In this document: in pieces, positions 16,185 through 40,982 of the stretch
How positions within the stretch are numbered: the stretch's first letter is position 1
How the letters are laid out: every line of letters starts with the position of its first letter
Origin: a phage
Sequence record: PZ445428.1
DNA: 64,000 bases
Reading direction: 5' to 3' (one strand)
Program-made: the position numbers and the translations under genes
Notes under the pieces: model-generated
The model's input: the letters and a program-made list of their open reading frames with translations, nothing else
The model's database searches: none
What the model was told of the DNA's origin: nothing

Positions 16185-16355
16185 ATGAAATCAGTTGTAA
16201 TTATTGGTGTTAATACTCGTGGTATTCGTACTACTAAAACTGTTAAAACTGCTAAGATTTCTGATGTTACATCAAACCCTAGCAAGTTTGATTTCGCTAA
16301 AGTCTCGGCAGTTATGACTGAAAAATCTTTTAATCAAACACTGGAAGCAAAATAA
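16185..16355 (+). CDS. hypothetical protein (56 aa)
   Basis: Hand-translated ORF below track cutoff (MKSVVIIGVNTRGIR...); GAGAGGAAG RBS; stop overlaps next ATG. Confidence 0.4.
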   Translation: MKSVVIIGVNTRGIRTTKTVKTAKISDVTSNPSKFDFAKVSAVMTEKSFNQTLEAK

Positions 16356-16798
16356 TGGAAGAGAATATCCTAGACGTTCTGCGTAGAGCTTTACAAGCAT
16401 CTAAAGTAAATGGTTCTGATAAAGAAGTAGTGAAGAGCTACCAGACTATAATTGGCGATCTTCAGCGGGTAGATAAAGACTTTATCACTTCTGAACAATT
16501 TGTAAATTATCTGAAAGCTCAGTTAAAGAGCATTGAAGCAACTAAAGCAAAACTGCAGGGTGCTGATCTGCAAAACTATAGTCTGCAATCTGCTCAGTAT
16601 GAATATGTACTTAACAGTTATTTAGAGAAGTATCTGCCTCCGCAGATGTCCTCTACTGAAATACGCAATTACTTTGCAGAATTAGTTAAACTGAATCCAG
16701 GTATTACCAAAGGTACCCTGATGAAAGCGATTAAGGAAGAATTTTCTGGTCGTTATGATGGTAAACTTGCAGCTCAAGTTGCTGGCGAATTTAATTAA
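16355..16798 (+). CDS. hypothetical protein (147 aa)
   Basis: ORF track. Confidence 0.55.
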   Translation: MEENILDVLRRALQASKVNGSDKEVVKSYQTIIGDLQRVDKDFITSEQFVNYLKAQLKSIEATKAKLQGADLQNYSLQSAQYEYVLNSYLEKYLPPQMSSTEIRNYFAELVKLNPGITKGTLMKAIKEEFSGRYDGKLAAQVAGEFN

Positions 16799-16806
16799 AA
16801 ATTGAT

Positions 16807-16835
16807 TTGCTAAATGCTTCAAAAGTTGATATAAT
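16807..16835 (+). promoter_or_regulatory. early promoter cassette (-35 TTGCTA, -10 TATAAT) driving an ORF-free region
   Basis: Hexamers with 17-bp spacer; no start codon or ORF follows for about 1.1 kb. Confidence 0.6.
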
Positions 16836-17963
16836 AGTTACATAAATTAGAGAGAACAGCGAGCCGATTACGCTGAGTGCAGAATCCCAACCGGAGCGCA
16901 TTGAATAGAGTCGGTGAGTTGTACTAGGATTCCTGATTAGAGAGGTTCCAGGCACCGCAGGGTTTACTCTGTACCGCTTCCAGCTATCGATATCAGGAAT
17001 GAATAGTGCGCAAAACTCGGGAGCTGTCCCGAAACCTCGTAAACTCTTCTCTCTAATTTAATTAAACGATGGATCTCAGCACGAGCCAGTCACAGTGTGA
17101 AACATGGTGCGTGACCCAGGGGTAGAAGACTAGGAGTTGGCTTGAGAAACCCATGTAACTCCTAACGCTGACCCGTCTAGGTTGCAAATCGAGACATGTG
17201 TATATCACAATGAGGTAAGTGACCATCAAATAGTGGGTAGCGTAATTTTTAGGTGAATGATGGAGGTCTAACGACTGAGGGCATCATCTCGGGATTACCA
17301 GCCACGAAATAGTGGGGTGTCGAACTGACTTATGTAATAACACTGCCGTCCTAGTATAAACGGTAATATCAAGCCGTAACTGGTGGAAGATGTAGGTTCG
17401 AATCCTACGGTCGGTAAGAATTAGATAACTCGGGCTTATACCGGATAAGCATTCGCTGCGGAAGTACATACTATGACGGTTCAGGAGGTACGCCGCCTGA
17501 TCAGTATGAGGTTAGAATCGAAACCGCTAAACCACGAGGAAACCTGACGGCCTCAGCCAAACTCGGAAACTCAGGATCGCTGCTTAGTGCGTGCCCTGTT
17601 TTAACCTAGAGACTAAGCACTCCAGCTTCGCATCGAAAATCGGAGGTGCGATTCTACTAGACCGCGTAACTATGAGAGGGGGAAATGCTCACATGAAACA
17701 TGTGACTAATGGTGCACAATAGAACAGGTAAACGCGATAAGTCCTGTTGAGTAGCAGCAGAAGGCTGGGAGTCATGACCTGAGCCTAACCGAGTTCTCCA
17801 CATAGGGAGGACATAACCACGAAGTCACCTTGACTTAAACTGGAAGATATTGTCTGACGGCAGGGCTGAAGAGCTTAATCTGAGGGGGCTGACCCTACCT
17901 ACCGCCGGGTATCTTTAAGAGCTTTTGAGAGAGTTCTTAAAAATACCTAACAAAATCTATTTT
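16836..17963 (+). ncRNA. candidate large structured non-coding RNA / tRNA-like precursor region
   Basis: 1.1 kb with stops in all plus frames, higher GC than surroundings, promoter upstream, tRNA-like T-arm (GTAGG-TTCGAAT-CCTAC near 17392-17408), canonical tRNA-Arg directly at 3' end. Confidence 0.3.
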
Positions 17964-18038
17964 CGGGGTGTAGTCTAAGGGATAGGCAGGAGTCTTCTAA
18001 ATTCCTTTATGCAGGTTCGAATCCTGTCACCTCGGCCA
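17964..18038 (+). tRNA. tRNA-Arg (anticodon TCT)
   Basis: Cloverleaf read by eye: acceptor CGGGGTG/CACCTCG, anticodon loop CTTCTAA, T-arm GCAGG-TTCGAAT-CCTGT, CCA encoded. Confidence 0.7.
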
Positions 18039-18064
18039 ATTTTATTAACTAGTAGGAAAATAAA

Positions 18065-18265
18065 ATGAAAACACGATATATAGTAAAAGCAGTAGGTGAA
18101 CATTCTCAAGTAAATACCACTGATGTTACAGCACTAGCGTTTGAAGTAGTCTCCGGTATAGTTATATTTCATAATGGAGATATTAAAGCACCTGAATTTG
18201 CTGTGGATTCTGGCCTGTTTATTTCTGCCACTAAAGTAACTGTAGTATCTAACTCTTCTAAATAA
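18065..18265 (+). CDS. hypothetical protein (66 aa)
   Basis: ORF track. Confidence 0.45.
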   Translation: MKTRYIVKAVGEHSQVNTTDVTALAFEVVSGIVIFHNGDIKAPEFAVDSGLFISATKVTVVSNSSK

Positions 18266-18276
18266 TAAGGAAATAT

Positions 18277-19221
18277 ATGTTTACTAAAAACACTAAAGAA
18301 CTAACTTCTGAACAAAAAGTAATTCGTACTATTAAACGTTGGGGTGTTGGTGCTGTAGTTGGTCTTGGTGCTCTTATTCTGGCTCTCAATTCCTATACAG
18401 TTGTTCAGGACGGTACTGTAAAGACTCAGACATTCTTGGGTAAAGTTAACCCGAACCCTGTACTGCCAGGGTTTCACATTGTCAACCCATTCGCTTCTTT
18501 TGATACTTTTAGTACGAAAGATATTTCCATGAAACTGGATAAGCTTCAGGTTCCTAGCCAGGATAAGTTTAAGTCCACTGTTGATATTACTGTTATGTTG
18601 CAGTTCGATGGTGCTAAAGCTCCGATGAACCGTGTTAACGCAGGTACTCAGGATCAGGCGCTGAACAAGTATGTTGAAGAGAAGATGCTGTCTACTATCC
18701 GTGAATTTGGTAAGTCTGTACCGAAAGCACAGGATCTGTTCGACGCTAAGATTCAGGCACAGCTGCAAACTGCAATTCAGCAGGAAGTTGAAGAATATGC
18801 TCGTCCTTATGGTTACACCGTGAAGCAAGTATTCCTTCAGGATATTACACTTCCGCCAGTAATCATGGAACAGGTTCAGAACACAAAAGTTCGTGAAGAA
18901 CAAGTTAACGCCGCTAAAGCTGAACTAGCTCGTGTTGAACAAGAAGCACAGCAGAAAGTTAAGCAAGCTGAAGCAGATCGTTCTGCTCGTGAAAACATGG
19001 CAGTAGCTAACGAACGTGACGCAGATGCTAAACTGTACGCAGCTAAGAAAGAAGCTGAAGCTAACGCCGCACTGCAACGTACCATTACCCCTGAAATGAT
19101 TCGTTGGAAACAGCTGGAAGTTGAAATGCTTCGTGCTGAGAAATATCAGGGTGGTGTACCGCAGACTGTAGTTGGTACTGGTTATGATGGCCAGATGATC
19201 ATGGATATGCGTAACAAGTAA
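18277..19221 (+). CDS. putative SPFH/band-7 (prohibitin-like) membrane protein
   Basis: N-terminal TM helix, central SPFH-like region, long Ala/Glu/Gln coiled-coil tail. Confidence 0.5.
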   Translation: MFTKNTKELTSEQKVIRTIKRWGVGAVVGLGALILALNSYTVVQDGTVKTQTFLGKVNPNPVLPGFHIVNPFASFDTFSTKDISMKLDKLQVPSQDKFKSTVDITVMLQFDGAKAPMNRVNAGTQDQALNKYVEEKMLSTIREFGKSVPKAQDLFDAKIQAQLQTAIQQEVEEYARPYGYTVKQVFLQDITLPPVIMEQVQNTKVREEQVNAAKAELARVEQEAQQKVKQAEADRSARENMAVANERDADAKLYAAKKEAEANAALQRTITPEMIRWKQLEVEMLRAEKYQGGVPQTVVGTGYDGQMIMDMRNK

Positions 19222-19245
19222 TAGACATACGTAACATCTGAAGTA

Positions 19246-19330
19246 AGCCCGCGTTTCCTCCGAGAGCGCGGGCTTTTCTGTATTTAAGGCAAAAGAAAAG
19301 CCCCTTACCTTTCGGCAGGGGCTTTGTTTT
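19246..19330. terminator. bidirectional terminator region between convergent genes
   Basis: Two hairpins (AAGCCCGCG...CGCGGGCTT and GCCCCT...AGGGGC) flanked by T-runs on one side and A-runs on the other. Confidence 0.6.
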
Positions 19331-19539
19331 TGGTTTAGAACCATACTCTCTTGTTACAGCAACCACCCATACGGGAGACCAATCTTGACTGAAAATCTAC
19401 TCTAGGGGGCAGGATAAGAGTAGGCTTAAAGGCAAACGGATTGAACACCGGTATTTGCGTAAACATTGCTGGAGAGCAACAACGTGCTACAGGCATTGGG
19501 CAGCATGATGTAGGCTTTCTACAACACATTTAAACCTCC

Positions 19540-23851: not shown

Positions 23852-23880
23852 TTGCTAATTGCCGAAATTTTCTGTATAAT
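23852..23880 (+). promoter_or_regulatory. early promoter cassette upstream of tRNA genes (-35 TTGCTA, -10 TATAAT)
   Basis: Hexamers with 17-bp spacer; next feature is a tRNA. Confidence 0.6.
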
Positions 23881-23894
23881 ATATTCATAAATTC

Positions 23895-23988
23895 GGAAGA
23901 TTAACCCTAAAGGTAAGGGAGTTGTTTGCTAAACAACCAGTAGCTGTGGAGACACGGTGTATCAGTTCGAGTCTGGTATCTTCCTCCA
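23895..23988 (+). tRNA. tRNA-Ser (anticodon GCT)
   Basis: Acceptor GGAAGAT/ATCTTCC, anticodon loop TTGCTAA, long variable arm, T-loop TTCGAGT, CCA encoded. Confidence 0.75.
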
Positions 23989-25990: not shown

Positions 25991-26065
25991 GCACCTTTAG
26001 CTGAGATGGATTAGCGCTTGCCTGAAGAGCTTGAGAGGTTGGATCGTTACCAACGGGGTGCACCA
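25991..26065 (+). tRNA. tRNA candidate (anticodon GAA, Phe?)
   Basis: Perfect acceptor GCACCTT/GGGGTGC and D-arm; anticodon stem imperfect, loop CTGAAGA; atypical T-loop ATCGTTA; CCA. Confidence 0.45.
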
Positions 26066-29150: not shown

Positions 29151-29225
29151 GGGCGAATAGTGTCAGCGGGAGCACACCAGACTTGCAATCTGGTAGGGAG
29201 GGTTCGAGTCCCTCTTTGTCCACCA
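29151..29225 (+). tRNA. tRNA-Ala (anticodon TGC)
   Basis: Acceptor GGGCGAA/TTTGTCC, anticodon stem CCAGA/TCTGG loop CTTGCAA, T-arm GAGGG-TTCGAGT-CCCTC, CCA. Confidence 0.65.
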
Positions 29226-29231
29226 AATTTT

Positions 29232-29307
29232 GGGGTCATAGGTTATTTGGTTAAACTTACTGCCTTGCAAGCAGTAGAACTCAGTTCAATTCTGAGTGAC
29301 TCCACCA
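29232..29307 (+). tRNA. tRNA with TGC anticodon (second Ala-type)
   Basis: Acceptor GGGGTCA/TGACTCC, anticodon stem ACTGC/GCAGT loop CTTGCAA, T-arm CTCAG-TTCAATT-CTGAG, CCA. Confidence 0.6.
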
Positions 29308-29326
29308 AACAAATTAAGGAAATAAT

Positions 29327-29545
29327 ATGGTATTCTTAGCAGCCTCTGTAGTTCTTGCATCTTTAGCGTTAGCTATCTATTTTAGAACTGCTAAAGATTT
29401 ATCTAAAGAAAAGAAAACTTTCTTTACTGATTACTCTTGGGGTGCTCCATACGCTATCAATTCTATCAGTCTAGAAGCTATGTTGATAATGGTATTCAGT
29501 GGTATAGGTTCTATCGTTGCTGGATTACTTTTTATTTCTAACTAA
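29327..29545 (+). CDS. small membrane protein (72 aa)
   Basis: ORF track; two hydrophobic helices. Confidence 0.45.
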   Translation: MVFLAASVVLASLALAIYFRTAKDLSKEKKTFFTDYSWGAPYAINSISLEAMLIMVFSGIGSIVAGLLFISN

Positions 29546-29552
29546 ACAAAAT

Positions 29553-29633
29553 GGGGATGTGGCGAAATTGGCAGACGCGCTAGATTTAGGTTCTAGTCTT
29601 CGGGTGTGGGTTCGAGTCCCTCCATCCCTACCA
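29553..29633 (+). tRNA. tRNA-Leu (anticodon TAG)
   Basis: Acceptor GGGGATG/CATCCCT, Leu-type D-loop GAAATTGGCAGAC, anticodon stem CTAGA/TCTAG loop TTTAGGT, extended variable region, T-loop TTCGAGT, CCA. Confidence 0.65.
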
Positions 29634-29653
29634 TTTTAAAATAGGATTAATTA

Positions 29654-29818
29654 ATGTTAAAGATGCCAGTAAAACATATTTGGTTAGCTAGAAATAGGGC
29701 TACTAATGAATTTGTCTTTATTGATACAGGAATGACATATGATCAACGAATATATGATCTTCTGTATTCCGTGTCTGCTGAAGAAGTACACAAATTAATT
29801 CTAAAAGATGCAACATAA
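29654..29818 (+). CDS. hypothetical protein (54 aa)
   Basis: Hand-translated ORF between two tRNAs; weak RBS; below track cutoff. Confidence 0.3.
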   Translation: MLKMPVKHIWLARNRATNEFVFIDTGMTYDQRIYDLLYSVSAEEVHKLILKDAT

Positions 29819-29820
29819 TT

Positions 29821-29913
29821 GGAAGAGCAAATCGACTTGGTGACGAAAACCGCTTGGAAAGTGGCTGACTTGTGAAAGCAGGCTTGAGAGTTCGAATCTC
29901 TCTTCTTCCGCCA
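29821..29913 (+). tRNA. tRNA-Ser (anticodon GGA)
   Basis: Acceptor GGAAGAG/TTCTTCC, 3-bp D-stem, anticodon loop TTGGAAA, long variable arm, T-arm GAGAG-TTCGAAT-CTCTC, CCA. Confidence 0.65.
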
Positions 29914-29920
29914 AACAATT

Positions 29921-30010
29921 GGAAGTACGGGCGTAGTGGTATGCAACTAGTCTTGAAAACTAGCCCGCTGTAGCGATATGGTGATGGTTCGACTCCATGT
30001 GCTTCCGCCA
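29921..30010 (+). tRNA. tRNA-Ser (anticodon TGA)
   Basis: Acceptor GGAAGTA/TGCTTCC, anticodon stem CTAGT/ACTAG loop CTTGAAA, long variable arm, T-loop TTCGACT, CCA. Confidence 0.7.
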
Positions 30011-30016
30011 AATCTT

Positions 30017-30145
30017 GGAATATGCCGGAATTGGTAGACGGGACTGCCGAATAGGTTTACTAGGAACATCCACTCCTAGAAATATACCTTAAAAGCGGTT
30101 GAGTTAAATGGTCTAACTCGTGAAGGTTCAAGTCCTTCTATTCCT
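30017..30145 (+). tRNA. oversized tRNA-Leu(TAA)-like gene (~129 nt) with ~40-nt insertion in anticodon arm; possible intron-containing or disrupted tRNA
   Basis: Acceptor GGAATA/TATTCC, Leu-type D-arm CCG-GAATTGGTAGA-CGG, T-arm GAAGG-TTCAAGT-CCTTC, variable hairpin GAGTTA...TAACTC, anticodon stem ACTGC/GCGGT enclosing CTTAAAA loop plus inserted hairpin CTAGGA...TCCTAG; no CCA. Confidence 0.35.
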
Positions 30146-30395
30146 TGATACATCAATGGCTCAAAGAGTAACGGTGCACCTTTCTAGAGAATTTCCTGGG
30201 CGAGAATCCAGGTGTAATCAACTAGTCGTTAGTGTGATGAGTTTCGGAGAGCCGCCACAATTGAAGATCATTGTCTGTTTGAGTCTACCATTTAGGGTCG
30301 TTACTTGTAGCGCCTATCTGCTAGGTCTAATCACTAGGTAAAGGCATGCAAGCTTCTAGTGTAGAGAGTTCGCTACTCCTCGATGGTTTTCAATT

Positions 30396-30472
30396 GTGGC
30401 TATATCATAATTGGTTAATGATCCTGATTGTGAATCAGGCCTATGTGGATTCGAGTTCCACTAGCCACCCCA
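30396..30472 (+). tRNA. tRNA-His (anticodon GTG)
   Basis: Acceptor GTGGCTA/TAGCCAC, anticodon stem CCTGA/TCAGG loop TTGTGAA, T-arm GTGGA-TTCGAGT-TCCAC, CCA. Confidence 0.75.
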
Positions 30473-30478
30473 AATATT

Positions 30479-30553
30479 GCGTCCTTATTTCAACGGAAAG
30501 AATGTAAAGCTACGAACTTTACGATCGGGGTTCGATTCCCTGAGGATGCACCA
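30479..30553 (+). tRNA. tRNA-Arg (anticodon ACG)
   Basis: Acceptor GCGTCCT/AGGATGC, anticodon stem TAAAG/CTTTA loop CTACGAA, T-loop TTCGATT, CCA. Confidence 0.7.
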
Positions 30554-30577
30554 ATTAACTTAAACAGGAAAATAATA

Positions 30578-30778
30578 ATGGCTGATTTCTGTAAAGAATG
30601 CTCTATCGATATGTGGGGCAAAGATACACAAGATCTTTCTGGTCTTATCACTGAAGCTGAAGTTAAAGAAGGCTATGGTGCTGTAGTAATCTGCGAAGGT
30701 TGTGGTATTATCCGTGTTGATCATGAAGGCAAACGCCTTGAAGAACCTGAGCCAATCGCAACGGTTCCTGTAGAGTAA
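30578..30778 (+). CDS. small zinc-ribbon protein (66 aa)
   Basis: ORF track 30443..30778 trimmed to ATG after AGGAAAATAATA (5' part of track ORF overlaps two tRNAs); CKEC...CEGCG. Confidence 0.5.
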   Translation: MADFCKECSIDMWGKDTQDLSGLITEAEVKEGYGAVVICEGCGIIRVDHEGKRLEEPEPIATVPVE

Positions 30779-30786
30779 CAAATTAT

Positions 30787-30862
30787 TGGGATGTAGATCA
30801 ATTGGCAGATCGTCGGCCTCTGACTCCGAAGGTTCCTGGTTCGATCCCAGGCATCCCAGCCA
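30787..30862 (+). tRNA. tRNA-Gln (anticodon CTG)
   Basis: T1-A72 acceptor TGGGATG/CATCCCA (Gln-like), anticodon loop CTCTGAC, T-arm CCTGG-TTCGATC-CCAGG, CCA. Confidence 0.65.
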
Positions 30863-30868
30863 AACAAT

Positions 30869-30944
30869 TGGAGAATAGTGTAGTGGTTCGCACAACGGCC
30901 TTTGACTCCGTTAGTGGTAGGTTCAATTCCTCCTTCTCCTGCCA
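30869..30944 (+). tRNA. tRNA-Gln (anticodon TTG)
   Basis: Acceptor (T)GGAGAA/TTCTCC(T), anticodon loop CTTTGAC, T-loop TTCAATT, CCA. Confidence 0.6.
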
Positions 30945-30950
30945 ATTTAT

Positions 30951-31025
30951 GCGTGATTAGTTCAGTGGCTAGAATAACTGGCTTCCAACCAGTAGACACG
31001 AGTTCGACTCTCGTATCCCGCACCA
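30951..31025 (+). tRNA. tRNA-Gly (anticodon TCC)
   Basis: Acceptor GCGTGAT/ATCCCGC, anticodon stem ACTGG/CCAGT loop CTTCCAA, T-arm ACGAG-TTCGACT-CTCGT, CCA. Confidence 0.7.
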
Positions 31026-31039
31026 AATAAGGAAACGTT

Positions 31040-31261
31040 ATGCACGTTTTTGAGTTTCGTAATAAAAGCCCCAATAGACGCGTTTTGATTATTGGTGAAA
31101 CATATCGAGCTTACGAGCAAGAAGATGGTTCAGTTTTACTAAACGATGAAAAGCAAGGTTATAGCTTTCATCCAGAAGAAACGTATGAAGAGTTTCGTAC
31201 TAAGTTTCTTTTACCAGACTGGCTAGCAGTAGCCGAGCAACGAGAATCCGAAGATGGCTGA
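31040..31261 (+). CDS. hypothetical protein (73 aa)
   Basis: ORF track; AAGGAAA RBS. Confidence 0.5.
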   Translation: MHVFEFRNKSPNRRVLIIGETYRAYEQEDGSVLLNDEKQGYSFHPEETYEEFRTKFLLPDWLAVAEQRESEDG

Positions 31262-31427
31262 TAACCTGAAACTAAAGGTTGACAAACAGAAGAAACGTGT
31301 AGAGATTGAGCTTGGTGACGAACGCCTAGCACTATCCTTCGAGTTTCTTCAGCAGTTGGCGATGACAGTAATGTCTGATAAGTCTCCTGTATTTGAAAAA
31401 GAAATCCCGTTGAAATGACGGGTTTAT

Positions 31428-31502
31428 TGCTCCTAAAGCATTGCTGGCGATGCAGTTGCCTTGTAAGCATCTGAACCGGGTTCGATTCCTGGTGGGAGCA
31501 CC
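31428..31502 (+). tRNA. tRNA-Thr (anticodon TGT)
   Basis: Acceptor GCTCCTA/TGGGAGC, D-stem GCAT/ATGC, anticodon loop CTTGTAA, T-arm CCGGG-TTCGATT-CCTGG, CCA. Confidence 0.65.
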
Positions 31503-31517
31503 AAATTTAAAAATTCA

Positions 31518-31546
31518 TTTGCCTTCTCTCTTATTTCTTGTTATAA
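31518..31546 (+). promoter_or_regulatory. early promoter cassette (-35 TTGCCT, -10 TATAAT)
   Basis: Hexamers with 17-bp spacer. Confidence 0.55.
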
Positions 31547-31577
31547 TATTTATATAAATTAATGAGAGGGAAACCAA

Positions 31578-31871
31578 ATGAAACGTTATCTTTCTGTCGT
31601 GTTCCAAACTGGTGGTCAGCGTTATACCTACGAATTTCCAGAGTCTTGGAAAATCAAAGAAGGTGATCAGGTTGTTGTACTGACACCGCGTGAAGGCTTC
31701 AAAGTGGTTACGGTTAAACAAGTATTTCCTAAAGATCACGAACCATCTAAATCTATTAATTATAAGATGATTCATGGTCTGGTACGAAAAGTACCACGGA
31801 CGGAAGTTGAAGTAGATAAAGATGGTGAAGCTAAATACCAGTATACTTCTTACCTAGACGAGATGCGATAA
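31578..31871 (+). CDS. hypothetical protein (97 aa)
   Basis: ORF track; cassette RBS GAGAGGGAA. Confidence 0.55.
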   Translation: MKRYLSVVFQTGGQRYTYEFPESWKIKEGDQVVVLTPREGFKVVTVKQVFPKDHEPSKSINYKMIHGLVRKVPRTEVEVDKDGEAKYQYTSYLDEMR

Positions 31872-32095
31872 TGAGAATTACCTTTACTGAGAAGATAATA
31901 TGTAATGGGATTATGATCATTACAGCGTGGGAAGGTAAACAATGGTGCAGTATAACGGGTCTTAAAGCAGAAGATCAAACACCAGAAAACATTCTCAAAA
32001 TAAAACAAAACATGGCAAAACATGCTAAACGTCCTGGTGCTCCTAGGAATGGCATACGTTTTGCAGCAAAATGCTCCGATAGTTCAAACGGTTAG
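31871..32095 (+). CDS. hypothetical protein (74 aa)
   Basis: ORF track; 3' end overlaps tRNA-Ile by about 20 nt, so the call is uncertain. Confidence 0.35.
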   Translation: MRITFTEKIICNGIMIITAWEGKQWCSITGLKAEDQTPENILKIKQNMAKHAKRPGAPRNGIRFAAKCSDSSNG

Positions 32096-32148
32096 AACAG
32101 GCGACCGATAATCGTCAAATCTTGGTTCGATCCCAAGTTGGAGTACCA
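32073..32148 (+). tRNA. tRNA-Ile (anticodon GAT)
   Basis: Acceptor GCTCCGA/TTGGAGT, anticodon stem GGCGA/TCGTC loop CCGATAA, T-arm CTTGG-TTCGATC-CCAAG, CCA. Confidence 0.65.
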
Positions 32149-32192
32149 AAACAACGGAGAGTCACTACCGTAAGTGTGAAGTTGAAAAATAT

Positions 32193-32268
32193 AGTTAGTT
32201 GGCAGATCGGTTATGCACCTCCTTCATACGGAGCGATCAGAGTGGTTCGATTCCACTACTAACTACCA
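32193..32268 (+). tRNA. tRNA with CAT anticodon (Met/fMet/Ile2 class)
   Basis: Acceptor AGTTAGT/ACTAACT, anticodon loop TTCATAC, T-arm AGTGG-TTCGATT-CCACT, CCA. Confidence 0.6.
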
Positions 32269-32637
32269 AACAGAAGATCAGGCCATAGTGCCAGATCCTG
32301 CTGAGAAGAGAGTCCACATTCTATAAATGGACGGGCGTGACAGCAGGAAGTAGACTGCAACTCGATGCTATCTAAGAGTATAAATGTAGAAGCTAAGACT
32401 TTAGATAGTCATTGTCTTAGCGTGAGTAATCACGTAGTTGCAACAGACCAGGAAGATCGCAACGTTAAAATCAAAGCTCCTGTGCTTTTCTTCTTAATCG
32501 AGACCATCAATCTCACCGGAATGCTAGCACCCCAACAGTAGCTAGTGATTAAGAGAAAAGCAAACCTGCCTTCCAGTTTTTATCTTGCTTCTGGGTTATC
32601 AAAAAGCTGAGCCAATTTCTAACATCAGGGAGATCTA

Positions 32638-33006
32638 ATGAAAGCATATCAAAGTCTTAAATCCGGCGTAATTAACCTTGTTCATGACAATCAGATCATT
32701 CAGCTATACTCTAAAGACGGCGAACTTAAACAGAAAGTTCTAGTTGAAGATCTAGAAGGTATCACACCTCACTTTGATCCTGAAGCCTTCCGCATCGTGG
32801 ATGTTAAAGTAGTTCCTCAAGTCGAGGGTGGTCAACACCTAAATGTCAACGTATTAAGTCGTGATCAGCTTTTGGATGCTCAGAAACATCCTGAAAAATA
32901 TCCTCAGTTGACCATTCGTGTCTCTGGTTATGCTGTTCGATTTAATGCACTGACGCGTGAACAACAGAACGACGTTATTAGTCGTACATTTACTCAGGCG
33001 ATCTAA
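32638..33006 (+). CDS. grcA: autonomous glycyl-radical cofactor (GrcA/YfiD-like)
   Basis: 122-aa ORF ending [11 protein letters not shown]...[36 protein letters not shown], nearly collinear with E. coli YfiD glycyl-radical domain (RVSGY motif). Confidence 0.8.
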
Positions 33007-33087
33007 TGGGGTTTGGATACGATTTCTCCCAGCTACGCAAGGTAGTCGAGCAAACTCCATTTATCTCCGAAGTTTTAGGAGAACTTA

Positions 33088-33387
33088 GTGGACAGAGCAT
33101 TAAGACGTCACCACCGTCAACGTGTCAAGAACAATCGCAAGAAGTATTGGACAGTCTTCCCTCATGAAGAAAGTCCTAAACGGTTAGGTATTATTACTAC
33201 CACTCCTTGTATTTGCTCTTGCTGGATGTGTGGCAACCCACGCAAATACTATAAAAATAGTAAAGCAGCAATGAAAATCTCGGAGATTAAAAAGATGGAT
33301 TCAGGATATAATGAAATCACGTTTACAGGTGGTATCTCTGATGAGTTCGATGGTTTTGTATCACAAGACGTTATCGAAATTATCTAA
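33088..33387 (+). CDS. hypothetical basic Cys-rich protein (99 aa), GTG start
   Basis: ORF track; AGGAG RBS. Confidence 0.45.
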   Translation: MDRALRRHHRQRVKNNRKKYWTVFPHEESPKRLGIITTTPCICSCWMCGNPRKYYKNSKAAMKISEIKKMDSGYNEITFTGGISDEFDGFVSQDVIEII

Positions 33388-33396
33388 TTAAATAAC

Positions 33397-33432
33397 AAAC
33401 CCCGGCTATTGAATAAGTAGTTGGGGTTTTCT
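33397..33432 (+). terminator. rho-independent terminator
   Basis: AAACCCCGGCTA...TAGTTGGGGTTT hairpin followed by TTCTTAT. Confidence 0.5.
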
Positions 33433-33453
33433 TATATACACAGGATTTTCAAA

Positions 33454-33639
33454 ATGAAAATTTTTAAAGTGAACTACCGTGGACTATGGTTAGGTGGTAC
33501 AGCTATTGTTGTTGCGGAAACTGCGGAAAAAGCAATCGAACTGGCTAGAAACCATAGATCTTCTATAGAGTTTGAAGGTGTGACAGTAGAAGAACTCCCT
33601 AGCAGTGGGGTAGTATACAACGATAACGGGAATTACTGA
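33454..33639 (+). CDS. hypothetical protein (61 aa)
   Basis: ORF track 33421..33639 trimmed to ATG downstream of terminator. Confidence 0.45.
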   Translation: MKIFKVNYRGLWLGGTAIVVAETAEKAIELARNHRSSIEFEGVTVEELPSSGVVYNDNGNY

Positions 33640-33696
33640 TGTTATATTTTAAAGTTCGACCACATTAAGTTAATTCACAGACTTAATGGAGAAAAT

Positions 33697-34092
33697 ATGA
33701 GCCGTACTTATCGCAAACAATCTGGAAATCATTACTGGCGTGACAAACATCGTTGCACTTATAACTTCCACAGCACTAATGTGCGTATTCCCTATGTTTA
33801 CACAGATCGTGAAGGTAAACAGTGGAAATACTACAAAGTTCGCTCTAATGAAGCATGGGCTATGTCTTGGGATGAAGTTGATGCAGAAATTCAGGAAGGC
33901 ATCCTGAATAACGAAAAGAAAGATGGTCACTGGTGGGATTCTATCAACCAGAGTGTTAAATGGCACTCTAACAAAATGGTTCGACAGGGAAATCGCCGTG
34001 AGTTACATCGTGTAATGAAAGATCCAGAAAATTACGACTACAATCGAGATCACGACCTTCGTAAGAAAGGCATCTGGTGGATCTACGACTAA
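33697..34092 (+). CDS. hypothetical Trp/His-rich protein (131 aa)
   Basis: ORF track. Confidence 0.55.
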   Translation: MSRTYRKQSGNHYWRDKHRCTYNFHSTNVRIPYVYTDREGKQWKYYKVRSNEAWAMSWDEVDAEIQEGILNNEKKDGHWWDSINQSVKWHSNKMVRQGNRRELHRVMKDPENYDYNRDHDLRKKGIWWIYD

Positions 34093-34109
34093 TTTCGTAA
34101 ATAATTCAT

Positions 34110-34138
34110 TTGCTAAAACCCTCTCCTTTTGATATAAT
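34110..34138 (+). promoter_or_regulatory. early promoter cassette (-35 TTGCTA, -10 TATAAT)
   Basis: Hexamers with 17-bp spacer. Confidence 0.6.
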
Positions 34139-34168
34139 ATTTATATAAATTGATGAGAGGGCTTTGAA

Positions 34169-34441
34169 ATGAAAGAAGCAGAAATTAATGAAATGGCTAG
34201 GGTTTTCGTAGTTTCCTATATGCAAGGTAGCTGCAATAGTCTTTTCGATTCAGCAGTAGTATTTCAGGAAGAATTAGCTGAGAAAGGTATACATATGGAA
34301 GATACTGAAATTGAGGATCTTCTGATGGAAGCTGCAAGTAGTGCAGAAGTATTCTTGTGTGATAATTGTGGTTGGTGGTGTCCTGAGCATGACCGTTCTG
34401 AAGAAGGCTCTTACTGTTCTGACTGTGAGGGAGAAGAATAA
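34169..34441 (+). CDS. hypothetical acidic Cys-cluster protein (90 aa)
   Basis: ORF track; CDNCGWWCPEH...CSDCEG. Confidence 0.5.
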   Translation: MKEAEINEMARVFVVSYMQGSCNSLFDSAVVFQEELAEKGIHMEDTEIEDLLMEAASSAEVFLCDNCGWWCPEHDRSEEGSYCSDCEGEE

Positions 34442-34737
34442 TGAATAAGTTTACTATTGCACTGATGATTTCCGCAGTTAGTTTCAGTTCTCTGGCATCC
34501 ACCAAAGTTTCTATGAAAAATGGTAATGTTAAAGTTCAGCAGAACGGCATTACCACTGAGTATGGTAAAGTCAGATTAGTAAAGGAGCGTAATGGTAATA
34601 TAGAAATTATGACCAATAAAAACTTCTCTACTCCAGCTATTACCATTCAGCGTAACGGTAATATTACTACCCAACGTTCCAACAATTCTGACTCGTTTAC
34701 TTGTCGTTATGATTGTGGTGTGGAAGTAGAAGAATGA
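34441..34737 (+). CDS. secreted small protein (signal peptide)
   Basis: ORF track; N-terminal MNKFTIALMISAVSFSSLAS. Confidence 0.5.
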   Translation: MNKFTIALMISAVSFSSLASTKVSMKNGNVKVQQNGITTEYGKVRLVKERNGNIEIMTNKNFSTPAITIQRNGNITTQRSNNSDSFTCRYDCGVEVEE

Positions 34738-35261
34738 TTACTCAAGAAAGGTTAAAAGAACTGCTAGAGTATAATCCTGAGACAGGACAATTTACTAATA
34801 AAATCCTAAGAGGTAGACTAAAGGTAGGTGCATTTGCAGGCACGTTAAGGTCTGATGGGTATATCCAAATAAGGCTTGATAAAAAAGCATATTATGCACA
34901 ACAACTAGCTTTCCTATATATGACAGGTATACTTCCAGAGGAAGTTGATCACATTAATAGGATTAGGTCGGATAACAGATGGGTTAATCTTAGAGAATCT
35001 AACAGACAAGAAAATAGTAGAAATCGTAAATCCACTAGTAACTCTGGATACTTAGGTGTGTCTTGGAATACAAAGGCACAGAAATGGCAAGTAATGGTGC
35101 GAAATTCCACGGGAAATAATATATTTGGTGGTTATTTTAACTATGAAGATTTAGATTATGCCGTTGCTAAAGCTAATGGATTACGACTAGAATTGCATGG
35201 AACTCTAGCAGTTATCGAAGAGTTTAGCGGTTTTCCACAAGAAAGAGAGAGAAGAACGTGA
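34734..35261 (+). CDS. HNH homing endonuclease (second copy)
   Basis: ORF track 34713..35261, start moved to ATG 34734; HNH core EVDHINRIRSDNRWVNLR plus AP2-like GYLGVSWNTKAQKWQ. Confidence 0.7.
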   Translation: MITQERLKELLEYNPETGQFTNKILRGRLKVGAFAGTLRSDGYIQIRLDKKAYYAQQLAFLYMTGILPEEVDHINRIRSDNRWVNLRESNRQENSRNRKSTSNSGYLGVSWNTKAQKWQVMVRNSTGNNIFGGYFNYEDLDYAVAKANGLRLELHGTLAVIEEFSGFPQERERRT

Positions 35262-35551
35262 AAGAAATAAACTTAAACAGTTACGCGAGGATTCTAGCGA
35301 CGGAACCAGTTCTGGAGTTCCTTCGTAAAGAACATACTGAATTCTGGCAAGAGTACAGCTTTGAGCATGGTTCAGAAGCAGCCGCAGCCTTTGCTAGAAA
35401 AAGAATTGACGAGTATGTTGACCCAGTAATTACTGATGGATTTATCAAGATGCCCCTTTGGGATCTGATGCAAAAATTCGGTGACACAATGGTAATGGGA
35501 CGAGTTCCTTACTTCACTGAAATCTACTTTGACGAAAAGGATATTAAATGA
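35258..35551 (+). CDS. hypothetical protein (97 aa), GTG start
   Basis: ORF track. Confidence 0.45.
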   Translation: MKEINLNSYARILATEPVLEFLRKEHTEFWQEYSFEHGSEAAAAFARKRIDEYVDPVITDGFIKMPLWDLMQKFGDTMVMGRVPYFTEIYFDEKDIK

Positions 35552-35832
35552 TTGTTTCTCCGTTTGCTCTTTGGTTTATTATTGGTGCAGTCGTTGCGAT
35601 TTACAGCTGTGTTGACGATGTGTTCTTCTCGAAAAACAAGGCTGTATTGTTAGAGCATATGCGGCGAACTTCCTCAGATATCTTAACCTTCTTTGGTGAG
35701 GAAAAGGCATACAAGATCGCTCTAGCAATATTTATTATATTTGACACATTATTCGGGCCGGTAGCTCTCTACGGATTCTATCGTAAAACCCGCAAGATGA
35801 AACAACTCAAAGCTGAATACTTTGGGAAGTAA
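35548..35832 (+). CDS. small membrane protein (94 aa)
   Basis: ORF track. Confidence 0.5.
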   Translation: MIVSPFALWFIIGAVVAIYSCVDDVFFSKNKAVLLEHMRRTSSDILTFFGEEKAYKIALAIFIIFDTLFGPVALYGFYRKTRKMKQLKAEYFGK

Positions 35833-35949
35833 AGAACTCGCGTAGGACCGAGTTAGTGTCACCTACTAACGTTACGGAGGGGAGTCGTGCCCCCGACAGG
35901 CAAAAGTGGTGAGTTGGTCGCTGACCTCAATTTTAACTTAGGAGCTAAC

Positions 35950-36294
35950 ATGACTTTTCTTTTAATTATTCTTGTTGCATGGCTGTTGATCGGAGCTGGT
36001 TATGCAATTGCACTTACTCGTCATCTTGATGAATACTCCGCTGAGTGGTTTGTAAAGTATCTACGACTAGACGATAAAGCTGAATCTTTTTCTAGTGAAG
36101 ATGAACGAAAAGCTGTTATGGAAATGACCCCGAAGCAATGTTTACGTTACATGCGTGTTGTTGGCTTCTTTGGTCTATTATTCCTTGGGCCGATTGGTAC
36201 TACAATCGCCCCGTACAAAGAAACAGTTGCCGACATCAAACTATGGAGAACTGCTGGATCGCTACGTCGTGCTAGAGAATTGAGTACCAAATAA
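35950..36294 (+). CDS. membrane protein (114 aa)
   Basis: ORF track 35887..36294, start moved to ATG after AGGAG. Confidence 0.5.
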   Translation: MTFLLIILVAWLLIGAGYAIALTRHLDEYSAEWFVKYLRLDDKAESFSSEDERKAVMEMTPKQCLRYMRVVGFFGLLFLGPIGTTIAPYKETVADIKLWRTAGSLRRARELSTK

Positions 36295-36335
36295 GATTGA
36301 TCTCAAATCAACTTACTAGCAAAACAATAATGACA

Positions 36336-36370
36336 AAGCCCAGCCTGCACTTTTGCGACTGGGCTATTTT
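36336..36370 (+). terminator. rho-independent terminator
   Basis: AGCCCAG...CTGGGCT hairpin followed by TTTTT. Confidence 0.6.
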
Positions 36371-36386
36371 TGTAATAAAATTTCAG

Positions 36387-36415
36387 TTGCGTAGATGCCC
36401 AAAGTCTTGTATAAT
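36387..36415 (+). promoter_or_regulatory. early promoter cassette (-35 TTGCGT, -10 TATAAT)
   Basis: Hexamers with 17-bp spacer. Confidence 0.55.
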
Positions 36416-36446
36416 ATGTTTATAGATTGAGGCAAAAGGATAATTT

Positions 36447-38581: not shown

Positions 38582-38594
38582 TTAAAGGATCACT

Positions 38595-40909: not shown

Positions 40910-40922
40910 GATAAAAAAGTAA

Positions 40923-40951: not shown

Positions 40952-40982
40952 ATATGTATAAATTGAATCAGAGGAGTTCACT

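What the first reader, a model, noticed from the sequence alone, without database searches (positions are those of the whole stretch)
16807..18038. Promoter-driven 1.1-kb ORF-free locus ending in tRNA-Arg: candidate large structured RNA
A full early-promoter cassette (TTGCTA, 17 bp, TATAAT at 16807-16835) is followed by about 1.1 kb with no start codon in cassette position and no plus-strand ORF of 60 aa or more (only a 61-aa antisense ORF at 17284-17469). In a genome that is otherwise almost gap-free this is conspicuous. GC content is visibly higher than in flanking coding DNA. The block contains a perfect tRNA-type T-arm (GTAGG-TTCGAAT-CCTAC near 17392-17408) with pairable acceptor-like 7-mers but no canonical cloverleaf, a repeated AAATAGTGGG motif (about 17228 and 17307), and terminates in a canonical tRNA-Arg(TCT). 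This fits a large ornate ncRNA of the kind found next to phage tRNA genes, or a multi-domain tRNA-like precursor.
Basis: partly seen in the sequence, partly recalled or inferred. Interest (0 to 1): 0.75.

Follow-up and report, generated by a model that had tools for sequence, protein, structure and literature searches.

The report
T5-family large structured RNA, RNAX
This 1.1-kb stretch without genes encodes a large, intricately folded non-coding RNA that T5-like phages transcribe from an early promoter just upstream of a tRNA gene. Two 2004 database records label its counterpart "RNAX, stable RNA with unknown functions", but no RNA family library holds it and no paper I could find describes it.

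Summary
A strong sigma-70 promoter (16807-16835) is followed by about 1.12 kb with no conserved ORF on either strand. GC is 0.45-0.49 against 0.32-0.36 in the flanks, and the stretch ends at tRNA-Arg(TCT).

The window is Escherichia phage TrudiGerster (Bas27). GenBank records for phages BF23 and 5 annotate the homologous interval as "rnaX, stable RNA with unknown functions". So the RNA's existence is already on record, although TrudiGerster's own record instead annotates three antisense hypothetical proteins here.

Homologs occur in more than 500 T5-like phages of E. coli, Salmonella, Klebsiella and Yersinia. More distant ones occur in Proteus, Providencia and Pectobacterium phages. In Markadamsvirinae, Novosibvirus and Priunavirus they sit between a YqeY-like gene and tRNA-Arg(TCT). 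In Sugarlandvirus a cell-wall hydrolase gene lies upstream instead.

Base-pair covariation supports about 90 pairs, including a 5' pseudoknot. Every indel between close relatives breaks the reading frame.

The RNA is modular (645-1300 nt):
- a terminal helix P1 found in every T5-like and Pectobacterium form examined;
- an optional 5' domain, which probably also occurs alone in unrelated phage tRNA islands;
- an optional embedded tRNA-like element;
- a 3' three-way junction and a long terminal hairpin.

Rfam's GOLLD, ROOL, HEARO, OLE and intron models do not match. It resembles those RNAs in setting but is not a member of any of them. Its function remains unknown.

The parts
16807..16835 (+). 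Early sigma-70 promoter (TTGCTA, 17 nt, TG-TATAAT). The inferred transcription start is near A16842.
   Evidence: The homologous promoter is annotated 'P16-17' in AJ604531 and AJ604530. The start site is inferred, not mapped.
16842..17963 (+). The whole non-coding RNA, about 1,122 nt. It is the long-form ortholog of RNAX.
   Evidence: It is 100% identical to TrudiGerster 67503-68624. It is homologous in three blocks to the annotated rnaX of phage 5. There is no conserved ORF. Covariation is shown.
16842..17061 (+). 5' domain, closed by helix P1 (16843-16856 pairs with 17047-17060).
   Evidence: The fold has z = -4.8, and none of 200 shuffles fold as well. P1 is kept in every T5-like and Pectobacterium My1-type form examined, with compensatory changes: L034 AGAUG/CAUCU, My1 UAGUAGAGAA/UUCUUUACUA, and a 2-nt insertion on both strands. 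The domain is absent from T5 itself, where P1 becomes a plain 5' hairpin.
16857..16915 (+). Pseudoknot element. S1: CAGCG 16857-16861 pairs with CGCUG 16871-16875. S2: GCCGAU 16863-16868 pairs with GUCGGU 16910-16915. Hairpin P3: 16876-16902. Conserved joiner GAAUAGA: 16903-16909.
   Evidence: On A8, 90.6% of cells are paired against 23-44% when slid. 7 of 16 pairs change on both sides, reached by 0 of 500 shuffles. S2 positions 3 and 4 show all four Watson-Crick combinations across genera. Model R2 recovers the unseeded Pectobacterium homologs at 39 bits and L091/L114 at 30 bits.
17062..17306 (+). Optional middle module. It contains the first AAATAGTGGG repeat (17228-17237).
   Evidence: It is absent in oselot, phage 5 and T5 and partly absent in SH9. 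The fold z-score is only -1.3.
17312..17347 (+). Most conserved block: GUGGGGUGUCGAACUGACUUAUGUAAUAACACUGCC.
   Evidence: It is nearly invariant in 33 homologs. It is recognisable in Proteus, Providencia and Pectobacterium phages.
17345..17416 (+). Embedded tRNA-like element with acceptor, D and T arms and a degenerate anticodon arm.
   Evidence: 36.2 bits. The acceptor and T arms covary. The anticodon is not conserved: ACT, CGA or TAG. An unrelated hairpin on the same basal stem replaces it in Eps7/SH9, Proteus and Providencia.
17434..17450 (+). Hairpin Ha (GCUUAU-ACCGG-AUAAGC), preceded by the conserved AAGA..GAUAACU.
   Evidence: Two pairs each show two or three Watson-Crick types, and 97% of cells are paired. 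Further variants are GGUUC/GAACC, GCUUA/UAAGC and GCGUA/UACGC.
17762..17786 (+). Hairpin whose invariant loop AGUCAUGA carries the 8-nt palindrome GUCAUGAC (17771-17778).
   Evidence: The stem covaries (AGGCU/AGCCU, AGACU/AGUCU, AGGU/ACCU, GUGAC/GUCAC, AAAUU/AGUUU) while the loop is invariant. The same palindrome sits in a GGG/CCC-closed loop in Proteus phages.
17823..17907 (+). Hairpin AGUCA-CCU-UGACU, conserved AACUGGAA, and a three-way junction (h1 17856-17860/17902-17906, h2 17863-17866/17873-17876, h3 17883-17886/17893-17896) around the conserved CUUAAU.
   Evidence: Model R1 and alignment A7: 90% of cells paired against 34-50% when slid, and 6 pairs change on both sides.
17908..17947 (+). 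Terminal 3' hairpin of 18 bp (GGUAUCUUUAAGAGCUUU...AGAGUUCUUAAAAAUACC).
   Evidence: 96-98% of cells are paired. One pair switches between U-A and C-G, and G-U pairs fit only the + strand.
17964..18038 (+). tRNA-Arg(TCT). Cutting at its 5' end by RNase P would create the 3' end of the RNA.
   Evidence: 49.3 bits. In BF23 and phage 5 rnaX is annotated as ending at the base before this tRNA. RNase P processing is an inference.

Best explanation
Window 16842-17963 is the TrudiGerster ortholog of RNAX, in a long form of about 1.12 kb. RNAX is a large non-coding RNA of T5-like phages (Demerecviridae).

Shown:
- It lies behind a strong early sigma-70 promoter.
- It is not protein-coding.
- Its sequence and many helices are conserved with compensatory changes across at least six phage genera.
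- It is modular. A terminal helix P1 encloses an optional pseudoknotted 5' domain. Then come an optional middle module, a highly conserved core carrying either a tRNA-like element or a plain hairpin, and a 3' three-way junction with a long terminal hairpin.

Inferred:
- It is co-transcribed with tRNA-Arg(UCU), since no + strand terminator appears before 19245.
- RNase P cutting at the tRNA's 5' end releases it.
- The 5'-terminal helix and the 3'-terminal hairpin protect its ends, which would explain why the BF23 and phage 5 depositors called it a stable RNA.

My working model is that it acts in trans as a structural RNA: a scaffold, a decoy or a self-assembling particle that engages the tRNA or translation machinery or a host defence. 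I put this at about 0.5. It would not be a message or a tRNA precursor. In setting it resembles GOLLD and ROOL, which are phage-encoded, lie beside tRNA islands and have variable regions that can hold tRNAs. It does not belong to their families.
For: Identity and prior annotation:
- The window is 100% identical to MZ501108.
- The homologous interval is annotated misc_RNA rnaX 'stable RNA with unknown functions' in AJ604531 and AJ604530. It runs from promoter P16-17 to the base before tRNA-Arg.

Non-coding:
- ORFs are short and unconserved on both strands.
- Between close relatives (same sequence group), every indel has a length that is not a multiple of 3. Between groups 10 of 13 and 16 of 17 do.
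- The three annotated antisense ORFs have no Pfam hit.

Structure:
- The 5' domain folds with z = -4.8.
- Core: 79.9% of cells paired against 36-46% when slid. 24 of 55 pairs change on both sides, reached by 0 of 500 shuffles.
- 3' region: 90% paired against 34-50% when slid.
- Pseudoknot element: 90.6% paired against 23-44% when slid, with 7 of 16 pairs changed on both sides.
- Many G-U pairs fit only the + strand.

Breadth:
- 527 phage records hold a match.
- Distant homologs in Proteus, Providencia and Pectobacterium phages keep the same neighbourhood of YqeY-like gene, promoter, RNA and tRNA-Arg(TCT).

Promoter and terminator.

Analogy: properties of GOLLD and ROOL are taken from PMC12286853.
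Against: - No expression data could be examined. 'Stable RNA' rests on depositors' notes in two GenBank records, and I found no paper describing RNAX.
- There are few independent lineages, so covariation counts are inflated by shared ancestry.
- Long-range architecture is unresolved. RNAalifold on MAFFT alignments gave inconsistent global folds.
- Fold z-scores of the middle module (-1.3) and the core (-1.8) are unremarkable.
- Large parts are dispensable in nature. T5 lacks the 5' domain. Eps7 and SH9 lack the tRNA-like element. Proteus and Providencia phages lack the E. coli-type 3' domain.
- An ORF is inserted inside the Providencia RNA. This argues against one rigid global structure.
- Nothing in the data points to a specific partner or function.
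Confidence: 0.78

Rival explanations
1. It is a polycistronic precursor rather than one functional RNA. The transcript would be an array of independent structured modules (5' domain, tRNA-like element, core, 3' domain). These would be cut apart, for example by RNase P at the tRNA-like element and at tRNA-Arg or by RNase III or E at the closing helices, and would act separately.
For: - Modules are gained and lost independently.
- The 5' domain is closed by its own helix. A copy of about 140 nt probably stands alone in unrelated metagenomic phage contigs, between repeated hairpins and, in L091, inside a tRNA island (L091, L114).
- The tRNA-like element has the acceptor and T arms that RNase P recognises.
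Against: - GenBank annotates a single stable species of 784-785 nt spanning all modules.
- The tRNA-like element is absent from several variants, which still keep a stem at that position.
- L091 and L114 score only about 30 bits with R2, close to the 23-28 bits of chance matches that were pre-selected by the same 20-nt pattern.
Confidence: 0.3
2. It is a cis-acting leader. The structured RNA would exist only to control transcription, processing or stability of tRNA-Arg(UCU) and the downstream genes (a 66-aa ORF and an SPFH/band-7 protein) in the same operon.
For: - There is no + strand terminator between the promoter and 19245.
- tRNA-Arg(TCT) is the first tRNA downstream in every lineage examined.
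Against: - At 650-1300 nt with about 90 supported pairs, it is far larger than any known leader.
- In oselot, HMD-P2, Klebsiella and Providencia phages, ORFs separate the RNA from the tRNA while the RNA stays conserved.
- The depositors call it a stable RNA in its own right.
Confidence: 0.12
3. It is a graveyard of decayed tRNA genes or other non-functional spacer at the edge of the tRNA region.
For: - One degenerate tRNA-like element is present. Annotators label it tRNA-Pseudo, OTHER, Sec or Ser.
- The GC content is close to that of tRNA genes.
Against: - Rfam's tRNA model finds nothing else tRNA-like in the interval even at E <= 10.
- Long blocks are invariant across genera.
- Compensatory changes preserve helices.
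- A dedicated strong promoter is conserved.
Confidence: 0.03
4. It is protein-coding: either the three antisense 'hypothetical proteins' annotated in TrudiGerster (bas27_0080-0082) or a frameshifted pseudogene.
For: MZ501108 annotates CDSs at window 16791-16955, 17062-17226 and 17284-17469 on the minus strand. Klebsiella phage K7_rec20 annotates four + strand CDSs in its homolog.
Against: - These ORFs are not conserved in position, strand or frame among homologs.
- Indels break the frame.
- They have no Pfam match.
- Most records of the same sequence annotate nothing here.
Confidence: 0.02

Closest known systems
RNAX (gene rnaX) of phages BF23 and 5, GenBank AJ604530 and AJ604531
   Same: - Same locus: promoter P16-17, then the RNA, then tRNA-Arg(AGA).
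- Homologous sequence in three blocks: the 5' pseudoknot element, the core with the tRNA-like element, and the 3' domain. These are 80-89% identical.
   Different: - The window's copy is about 1,122 nt against 784-785 nt.
- It has an enlarged 5' domain, an extra middle module of about 245 nt and a different segment between the core and the 3' domain.
- It is not annotated as an RNA in its own record.
GOLLD RNA
   Same: - Phage- or prophage-encoded and often beside tRNA islands.
- More than 800 nt long, with a conserved part plus a variable part.
- tRNAs are sometimes embedded in the variable linker.
- Function unknown (PMC12286853).
   Different: - Rfam's model does not match, even at E <= 10.
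- Sequence and helices are different.
- GOLLD's hosts are Lactobacillales, Mycobacterium and lake or marine phages.
- Its 14-mer cage assembly has not been tested for RNAX.
ROOL RNA
   Same: - Phage-encoded and near tRNA islands.
- Large, with pseudoknots.
- No protein partner is known.
- Kissing loops build a multimer. RNAX has an invariant palindromic loop that could form such a contact.
   Different: - No Rfam match.
- Unrelated sequence.
- Self-association of RNAX is only a hypothesis.
Phage T4 stable RNAs 'species 1 and 2' (rnaC, rnaD) in the T4 tRNA cluster (from my own knowledge, not checked here)
   Same: - Phage-encoded stable RNAs of unknown function.
- Co-transcribed and co-processed with tRNAs in a tRNA gene cluster.
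   Different: - The T4 RNAs are only about 120-140 nt long.
- I know of no sequence relationship.
RNAs with a tRNA-like domain: bacterial Y RNA (YrlA) and tmRNA
   Same: They contain a tRNA mimic with acceptor-like and T arms but without a working anticodon arm (abstracts of PMC4201824 and bioRxiv 10.1101/312249).
   Different: - Y RNAs are about 100-200 nt long and are linked to Ro60.
- In tmRNA the two ends of the molecule form the tRNA-like domain.
- Neither Rfam family matches.
- In RNAX the tRNA-like element is an optional cap on an internal stem.

Membership tests
RNAX (rnaX of BF23 and phage 5) | Lies between early promoter P16-17 and tRNA-Arg(AGA codon) at the edge of the tRNA gene region | tested here: met
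   Promoter at 16807-16835 and tRNA-Arg(TCT) at 17964-18038. The layout matches AJ604531 and AJ604530.
RNAX (rnaX of BF23 and phage 5) | Sequence homology to the annotated rnaX | tested here: met
   blastn finds three collinear blocks at 88%, 89% and 80% identity, covering the 5' element, the core and the 3' domain. Model R1, built without T5-type sequences, scores them at 66-76 bits.
RNAX (rnaX of BF23 and phage 5) | Accumulates as a stable transcript during infection | not testable with these tools
   Only the depositors' note is available. I found no paper.
GOLLD / ROOL / HEARO / OLE / raiA (Rfam large RNAs) | Match to the family covariance model at or above the gathering score | tested here: not met
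   cmscan of 16700-18100 against all 4227 Rfam 15 families at E <= 10 gives only two tRNA hits and three chance-level hits. The same holds for Proteus, Providencia, Pectobacterium and L091 loci.
GOLLD / ROOL (what they work like) | Phage-encoded, adjacent to a tRNA island, large, with variable regions that can hold a tRNA | tested here: met
   compared with PMC12286853.
GOLLD / ROOL (what they work like) | Homo-oligomeric RNA-only assembly | not testable with these tools
   The only hint is the invariant GUCAUGAC palindrome in a hairpin loop.
tRNA (for the element at 17345-17416) | Rfam tRNA model at or above 29 bits, with acceptor, D and T arms | tested here: met
   36.2 bits. ARAGORN also calls it.
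tRNA (for the element at 17345-17416) | Intact anticodon arm and a conserved anticodon | tested here: not met
   The model skips 18 nt at the anticodon arm. ARAGORN calls the element in only 3 of 11 homologs (the window plus ten loci), with anticodons ACT or CGA, and TAG in a Pectobacterium My1-type phage. The element is absent in Eps7 and SH9.
Group I / group II introns and self-cleaving ribozymes in Rfam | Match to the covariance model | tested here: not met
   No hit at E <= 10.
Protein-coding gene or pseudogene | An ORF conserved among homologs, with frame-preserving indels | tested here: not met
   and (no Pfam hit).

The most novel reading that the evidence does not exclude
RNAX is a third class of large 'ornate' phage RNA, and one that can be studied in E. 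coli. On this reading it is assembled from portable structured modules, since its pseudoknotted 5' domain also occurs alone in the tRNA islands of unrelated phages. It would self-associate through the invariant palindromic loop GUCAUGAC into an RNA-only particle, or a particle with few proteins. That particle would act on tRNAs or ribosomes, or blunt a host defence that targets tRNA.
Probability: 0.15. Interest if true: 0.85.

Novelty: new member of a known kind. Interest (0 to 1): 0.6.

Why it matters
- Tractability: GOLLD and ROOL are large phage RNAs that sit beside tRNA islands and form striking cages, yet their function is unknown and their hosts are hard to work with. RNAX shares their setting but lies in T5, BF23 and the BASEL phages, which infect E. 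coli K-12. Deletion, complementation, pull-down and structural experiments are therefore straightforward.
- What this analysis adds: the RNA is conserved and covarying across at least six Demerecviridae genera. It is built from exchangeable modules, one of which is a new pseudoknot motif probably shared with unrelated phages. It is absent from Rfam.
- Annotation: hundreds of deposited T5-like genomes leave the region blank or fill it with spurious small ORFs or pseudo-tRNAs. A curated RNA family would correct these records.

Tried and rejected
- Rfam at the gathering threshold and at E <= 10, on the window and on distant homologs, gave only tRNAs.
- RNAalifold on MAFFT alignments of the whole 5' domain and the whole core was misled by swapped, non-homologous modules. 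Its long-range pairs differed between sequence groups, so I did not use them.
- A candidate pairing between the four bases after GAA in the core block and the four bases before GAUAACU works in the Epseptimavirus group. It fails in the T5, Klebsiella and Proteus types, so I dropped it (sequences).
- The post-Ha CGCUG could pair with the 5' CAGCG. T5-type RNAs have CCGAGG there whether or not they carry the 5' domain, so I dropped this too.
- There is no similarity in 5,426 E. coli genomes. The RNA is therefore not a copy or mimic of a host sequence detectable by blastn.
- The tRNA-like element is not a recent copy of any of the 28 phage tRNAs.
- The SPFH protein was a poor synteny marker because T4-like phages share it. 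YqeY worked.
- Metagenome and IMG/VR pattern scans returned only the already known sequence groups, plus chance hits.
- A bacterial-genome scan for the pseudoknot pattern gave about 120 mostly chance matches. None scored above 28 bits with model R2.
- Eight literature searches found no paper on RNAX. One search was rejected and another was badly posed.
- The published viable T5 deletions do not cover the locus, so they say nothing about whether it is dispensable.
Full report
**What the window is**

Window 16800-18040 is 100% identical to Escherichia phage TrudiGerster (Bas27, MZ501108.1, Epseptimavirus, Demerecviridae), positions 67461-68701. That record annotates three minus-strand 'hypothetical proteins' and the tRNA-Arg in this interval, and no RNA gene.

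**Checking the observation**

- The promoter TTGCTA-17-TATAAT, with a TG extension, lies at 16807-16835. It is the best + strand sigma-70 match in 16300-19400.
- It is one of 15 copies of the T5 early promoter cassette (TATAAT-N5-CATAAATTnGAGAG) in the window, against 0.02 expected by chance.
- Downstream, the only + strand ORF of 30 aa or more before the tRNA is 43 aa. The minus strand holds ORFs of 48-61 aa.
- GC is 0.42-0.49 across the block and 0.32-0.36 on both sides.
- The T-arm, the two AAATAGTGGG copies (17228 and 17307) and tRNA-Arg(TCT) at 17964-18038 are all present.

One correction is needed. Both ARAGORN and Rfam's tRNA model (36.2 bits, cut-off 29) call 17345-17416 a tRNA. The model skips the 18 nt of the anticodon arm. 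It is therefore a degenerate tRNA-like element, not a sequence without a cloverleaf.

**It has been seen before**

blastn finds the interval in 495-527 phage records, all T5-like. Two of them are the tRNA-gene-region records of Salmonella phage 5 (AJ604531) and BF23 (AJ604530). The feature is 784-785 nt long. It starts inside promoter 'P16-17' and ends at the base before tRNA-Arg.

The T5 record AY587007 marks only a tRNA pseudogene there. Other records carry nothing, small ORFs, or 'tRNA-OTHER/Pseudo/Sec/Ser'.

Eight full-text searches found no paper on RNAX (plus the GOLLD/ROOL search 33). The existence of the RNA is therefore on record. Its structure, distribution and function are not.

**Not coding**

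Across 12 homologs, ORFs of 45 aa or more are short and differ in position, strand and frame. Every indel between members of the same sequence group has a length that is not a multiple of three (6 of 6, 4 of 4, 1 of 1, 1 of 1, 4 of 4 and 3 of 3). Between groups the counts are 10 of 13 and 16 of 17. The three annotated antisense ORFs have no Pfam match.

**Not a known RNA family**

cmscan of 16700-18100 against all 4227 Rfam 15 families at E <= 10 returns only the two tRNA hits and three chance-level matches. GOLLD, ROOL, HEARO, OLE, raiA, introns, ribozymes, tmRNA, Y RNA and RNase P RNA are all absent. The same is true of the distant homologs.

blastn finds nothing similar in 5,426 complete E. 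coli genomes. The tRNA-like element is not a recent copy of any of the phage's 28 tRNAs.

**Architecture**

Aligning 11, then 33, then 41 distinct homologs shows a modular RNA. Its length from the -10 box to the 3' hairpin falls into these classes:

| Length (nt) | Phages |
|---|---|
| about 645 | several T5-like phages |
| 728 | T5 |
| 793-809 | phage 5, BF23 |
| 869-1112 | Epseptimavirus (window: 1112) |
| 1265-1297 | Klebsiella Sugarlandvirus |

(1) **Helix P1.** The very 5' end, AUAAAUUAGAGAGAA (16842-16856), pairs with UUCUCUCUAAUUUA (17047-17060).
- Every T5-like form and the Pectobacterium My1-type phages keep this helix.
- In T5 and other minimal forms the two strands are joined by a short loop, giving a plain 5' hairpin.
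- Compensatory changes occur in L034 (AGAUG/CAUCU) and in My1-type phages (UAGUAGAGAA/UUCUUUACUA).
- The window and the Klebsiella phages carry a 2-nt insertion on both strands.

(2) **5' domain.** Inside P1 the window has a domain of about 190 nt. The whole 222-nt segment, P1 included, folds with z = -4.8.
- Its conserved heart is an H-type pseudoknot: S1 is CAGCG/CGCUG and S2 is GCCGAU/GUCGGU.
- It also has a hairpin P3, whose sequence is entirely different between groups, and the joiner GAAUAGA.
- On a 14-sequence MAFFT alignment that includes Proteus and Providencia phages, 90.6% of cells pair, against 23-44% when partners are slid.
- 7 of 16 pairs change on both sides, and no shuffle out of 500 reaches this.
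- S2 positions 3 and 4 show all four Watson-Crick combinations: CG+GC in E. coli-type phages, AU+GC in Proteus and Pectobacterium, AU+UA in Providencia, and CG+UA in L091.

(3) **Optional middle module** (17062-17306).

(4) **Core.**
- The nearly invariant block GUGGGGUGUCGAA...ACUUAUGUA..AACACUGCC comes first.
- A stem follows. It is capped by the tRNA-like element or, in Eps7, SH9, Proteus and Providencia phages, by an unrelated hairpin.
- Then come AAGA..GAUAACU and hairpin Ha, whose stem occurs as GCUUAU/AUAAGC, GCUUUU/AAAAGC, GGUUC/GAACC, GCUUC/GAAGC, GCUUA/UAAGC and GCGUA/UACGC.

(5) **Variable stretch** with further covarying hairpins.

(6) **3' domain.**
- A hairpin has a covarying stem and an invariant loop, AGUCAUGA, that holds the 8-nt palindrome GUCAUGAC.
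- Then come hairpin AGUCA-CCU-UGACU, the conserved AACUGGAA, and a three-way junction around CUUAAU.
- An 18-bp terminal hairpin closes the domain.

**How strong the covariation is**

For 55 local pairs defined on the window sequence and counted on the sequence-only MAFFT alignment of 33 cores:

| Measure | Observed | Partners slid |
|---|---|---|
| Cells paired | 79.9% | 36-46% |
| Pairs changed on both sides | 24 (0 of 500 shuffles reach this) | 3-10 |
| Covariation score | 0.192 | 0.03-0.09 |

For the 36-pair 3' region, 90-93% of cells pair, against 34-53% when slid.

Many pairs are G-U, which would be A-C mismatches on the other strand. The folded molecule is therefore the + strand transcript.

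Three cautions apply:
- There are only four to seven independent lineages.
- The structures were derived from the window sequence.
- The long-range organisation could not be resolved.

**Wider distribution**

Using the upstream YqeY-like protein (Pfam YqeY, E = 9e-6) as a synteny marker, I found the same arrangement in two more genera. The arrangement is YqeY gene, early promoter, 700-760 nt without ORFs, then tRNA-Arg(TCT). It occurs in Proteus phages (Novosibvirus) and Providencia phages (Priunavirus).

blastn from the window had missed these. They share the pseudoknot element, (C)GUAAACUCU/CACUAAACUCU, AUGAUGGA, the core block and AAGA..GAUAACU with Ha. Proteus phages also keep CUUUAAUCUG.
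- They lack the E. coli-type 3' domain.
- In Providencia phages a DUF7448 ORF is inserted inside the RNA.

A pattern scan for the pseudoknot element added Pectobacterium My1-type phages, which carry a full homolog.

It also added three metagenomic viral contigs (L091, L114 and a truncated copy in L079). There, a copy of about 140 nt of the 5' domain alone sits between repeated hairpins. It has its own closing helix UUCAAAA/UUUUGAA, plus S1, S2, P3 and a CCUCUAAAC motif. In L091 it lies inside a 20-tRNA island.

A model built without those sequences scores My1-type copies at 39 bits and L091/L114 at about 30 bits. Chance matches pre-selected by the same 20-nt pattern score 23-28 bits. The stand-alone copies are therefore probable, not certain.

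**How it most likely works**

Shown: the promoter, the lack of coding capacity, the conserved and covarying structure, the modularity, and the linkage to tRNA-Arg(UCU).

Inferred:
- The first + strand terminator-like site is at 19245-19275. The RNA would therefore be made as the 5' part of an early transcript that continues through tRNA-Arg and two ORFs.
- RNase P cutting at the tRNA's 5' end would release it. This fits the annotated end of rnaX, one base before the tRNA.
- A base-paired 5' terminus and an 18-bp 3' hairpin would make it long-lived.

I commit to a trans-acting structural RNA (scaffold, decoy or self-assembling particle) as the most likely role, at about 0.5. The reasons are its size, its conserved unpaired blocks, and the parallel with GOLLD and ROOL. 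Those RNAs are also phage-encoded, lie near tRNA islands, have variable regions that sometimes hold tRNAs, and assemble through kissing loops (PMC12286853).

The invariant palindromic loop is a possible self-association site. A 6-nt palindrome in an 8-nt loop is expected about 5% of the time by chance, so this is only a lead. The same 8-mer does recur in a GGG/CCC-closed loop in Proteus phages, and it occurs only twice in the 64-kb window.

The main rival, at about 0.3, is that the modules are separate RNAs cut from a polycistronic precursor. The stand-alone 5' domain and the free gain and loss of modules favour that view. The single annotated species of 785 nt speaks against it.

Published viable T5 deletions (30661-38625 and 29191-32442) do not reach the locus at 40701-41537. 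They are uninformative about its function.

**Verdict**

This is a real, large, structured non-coding RNA gene. It is the long-form ortholog of the little-known RNAX. It is not a member of any curated RNA family, and it resembles GOLLD and ROOL in setting only.

It is new as a described structure and family. It is not new as an entity.

Noticed in passing
window 16791-16955, 17062-17226, 17284-17469 (minus strand): TrudiGerster's record annotates three antisense 'hypothetical proteins' (bas27_0080-0082) inside the RNA gene. They have no Pfam hit and are not conserved as ORFs in homologs, so they are probably spurious calls.
   Followed up: yes
window 16355-16798: The upstream gene is labelled 'recombination-related exonuclease' in this record and 'tRNA amidotransferase' in others. 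It matches only the Pfam YqeY/GatB-type domain, at 26.3 bits, just under the 27-bit cut-off. Its position upstream of the RNA is conserved as far as Proteus and Providencia phages, but not in Klebsiella Sugarlandvirus.
   Followed up: partly
L005 (T5, AY587007) and L022; equivalent to window ~17845: T5 carries an 86-87-nt insertion in the RNA. It is flanked by a 22-nt direct repeat (AGTCACCTTGAC[T/A]TAAACTGGAA) and contains a long inverted repeat, which resembles the footprint of a small mobile element or a duplication. The metagenomic contig L041 has it too.
   Followed up: no
L004 2423-2932 (oselot), L003 2663-3172 (HMD-P2); L010 1640-2175 (phiR201): In oselot and HMD-P2 a 169-aa ORF with no Pfam match is inserted between the 3' hairpin of the RNA and tRNA-Arg; phiR201 has a ~540-nt gap there whose content I did not confirm (my one translation attempt hit 21 stop codons). 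TrudiGerster keeps only a 16-nt spacer there (17948-17963).
   Followed up: partly
L065 4973-5380 (Providencia PSTCR5), L073 1398-1796 (PR1): An ORF is inserted inside the RNA gene, splitting its 3' tail. In PSTCR5 it matches DUF7448 (85.9 bits). Proteus phages PM135 and RP7 also carry an insertion of about 400 nt in the RNA.
   Followed up: partly
L091 2840, 2975, 3290, 3545; L114 ~480 and ~655: A repeated hairpin, CCGCTGGCACACCGGTTAAAGTGTGCC, punctuates the tRNA island of an unrelated metagenomic phage and brackets the stand-alone 5'-domain motif. It could be a processing or terminator signal.
   Followed up: no
window 25991-26062: Rfam's tRNA model reports a hit of 33.4 bits here that ARAGORN does not call. 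It lies directly after tRNA-Trp and could be another degenerate tRNA.
   Followed up: no
window 23875-23899: Another copy of the early promoter cassette ends inside the start of tRNA-Ser(GCT) at 23895. The same cassette therefore drives RNA genes directly elsewhere in the tRNA region.
   Followed up: no
window 17907-17984 (minus strand) and equivalents: Model R1 also gives weak reverse-strand hits (29-35 bits) over the 3' hairpin. This is an artefact of the long, AT-rich, near-palindromic hairpin. It contaminated alignment A6, so I discarded that alignment.
   Followed up: yes
L009 / L028 / L015 / L064 (Klebsiella phages), tRNA-like element: Some Klebsiella versions of the tRNA-like element carry an extra GC-rich arm (GCGGGGAGCUAUCCCCAG) at the position of a variable arm. 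Others, such as L008 and L011, do not.
   Followed up: no
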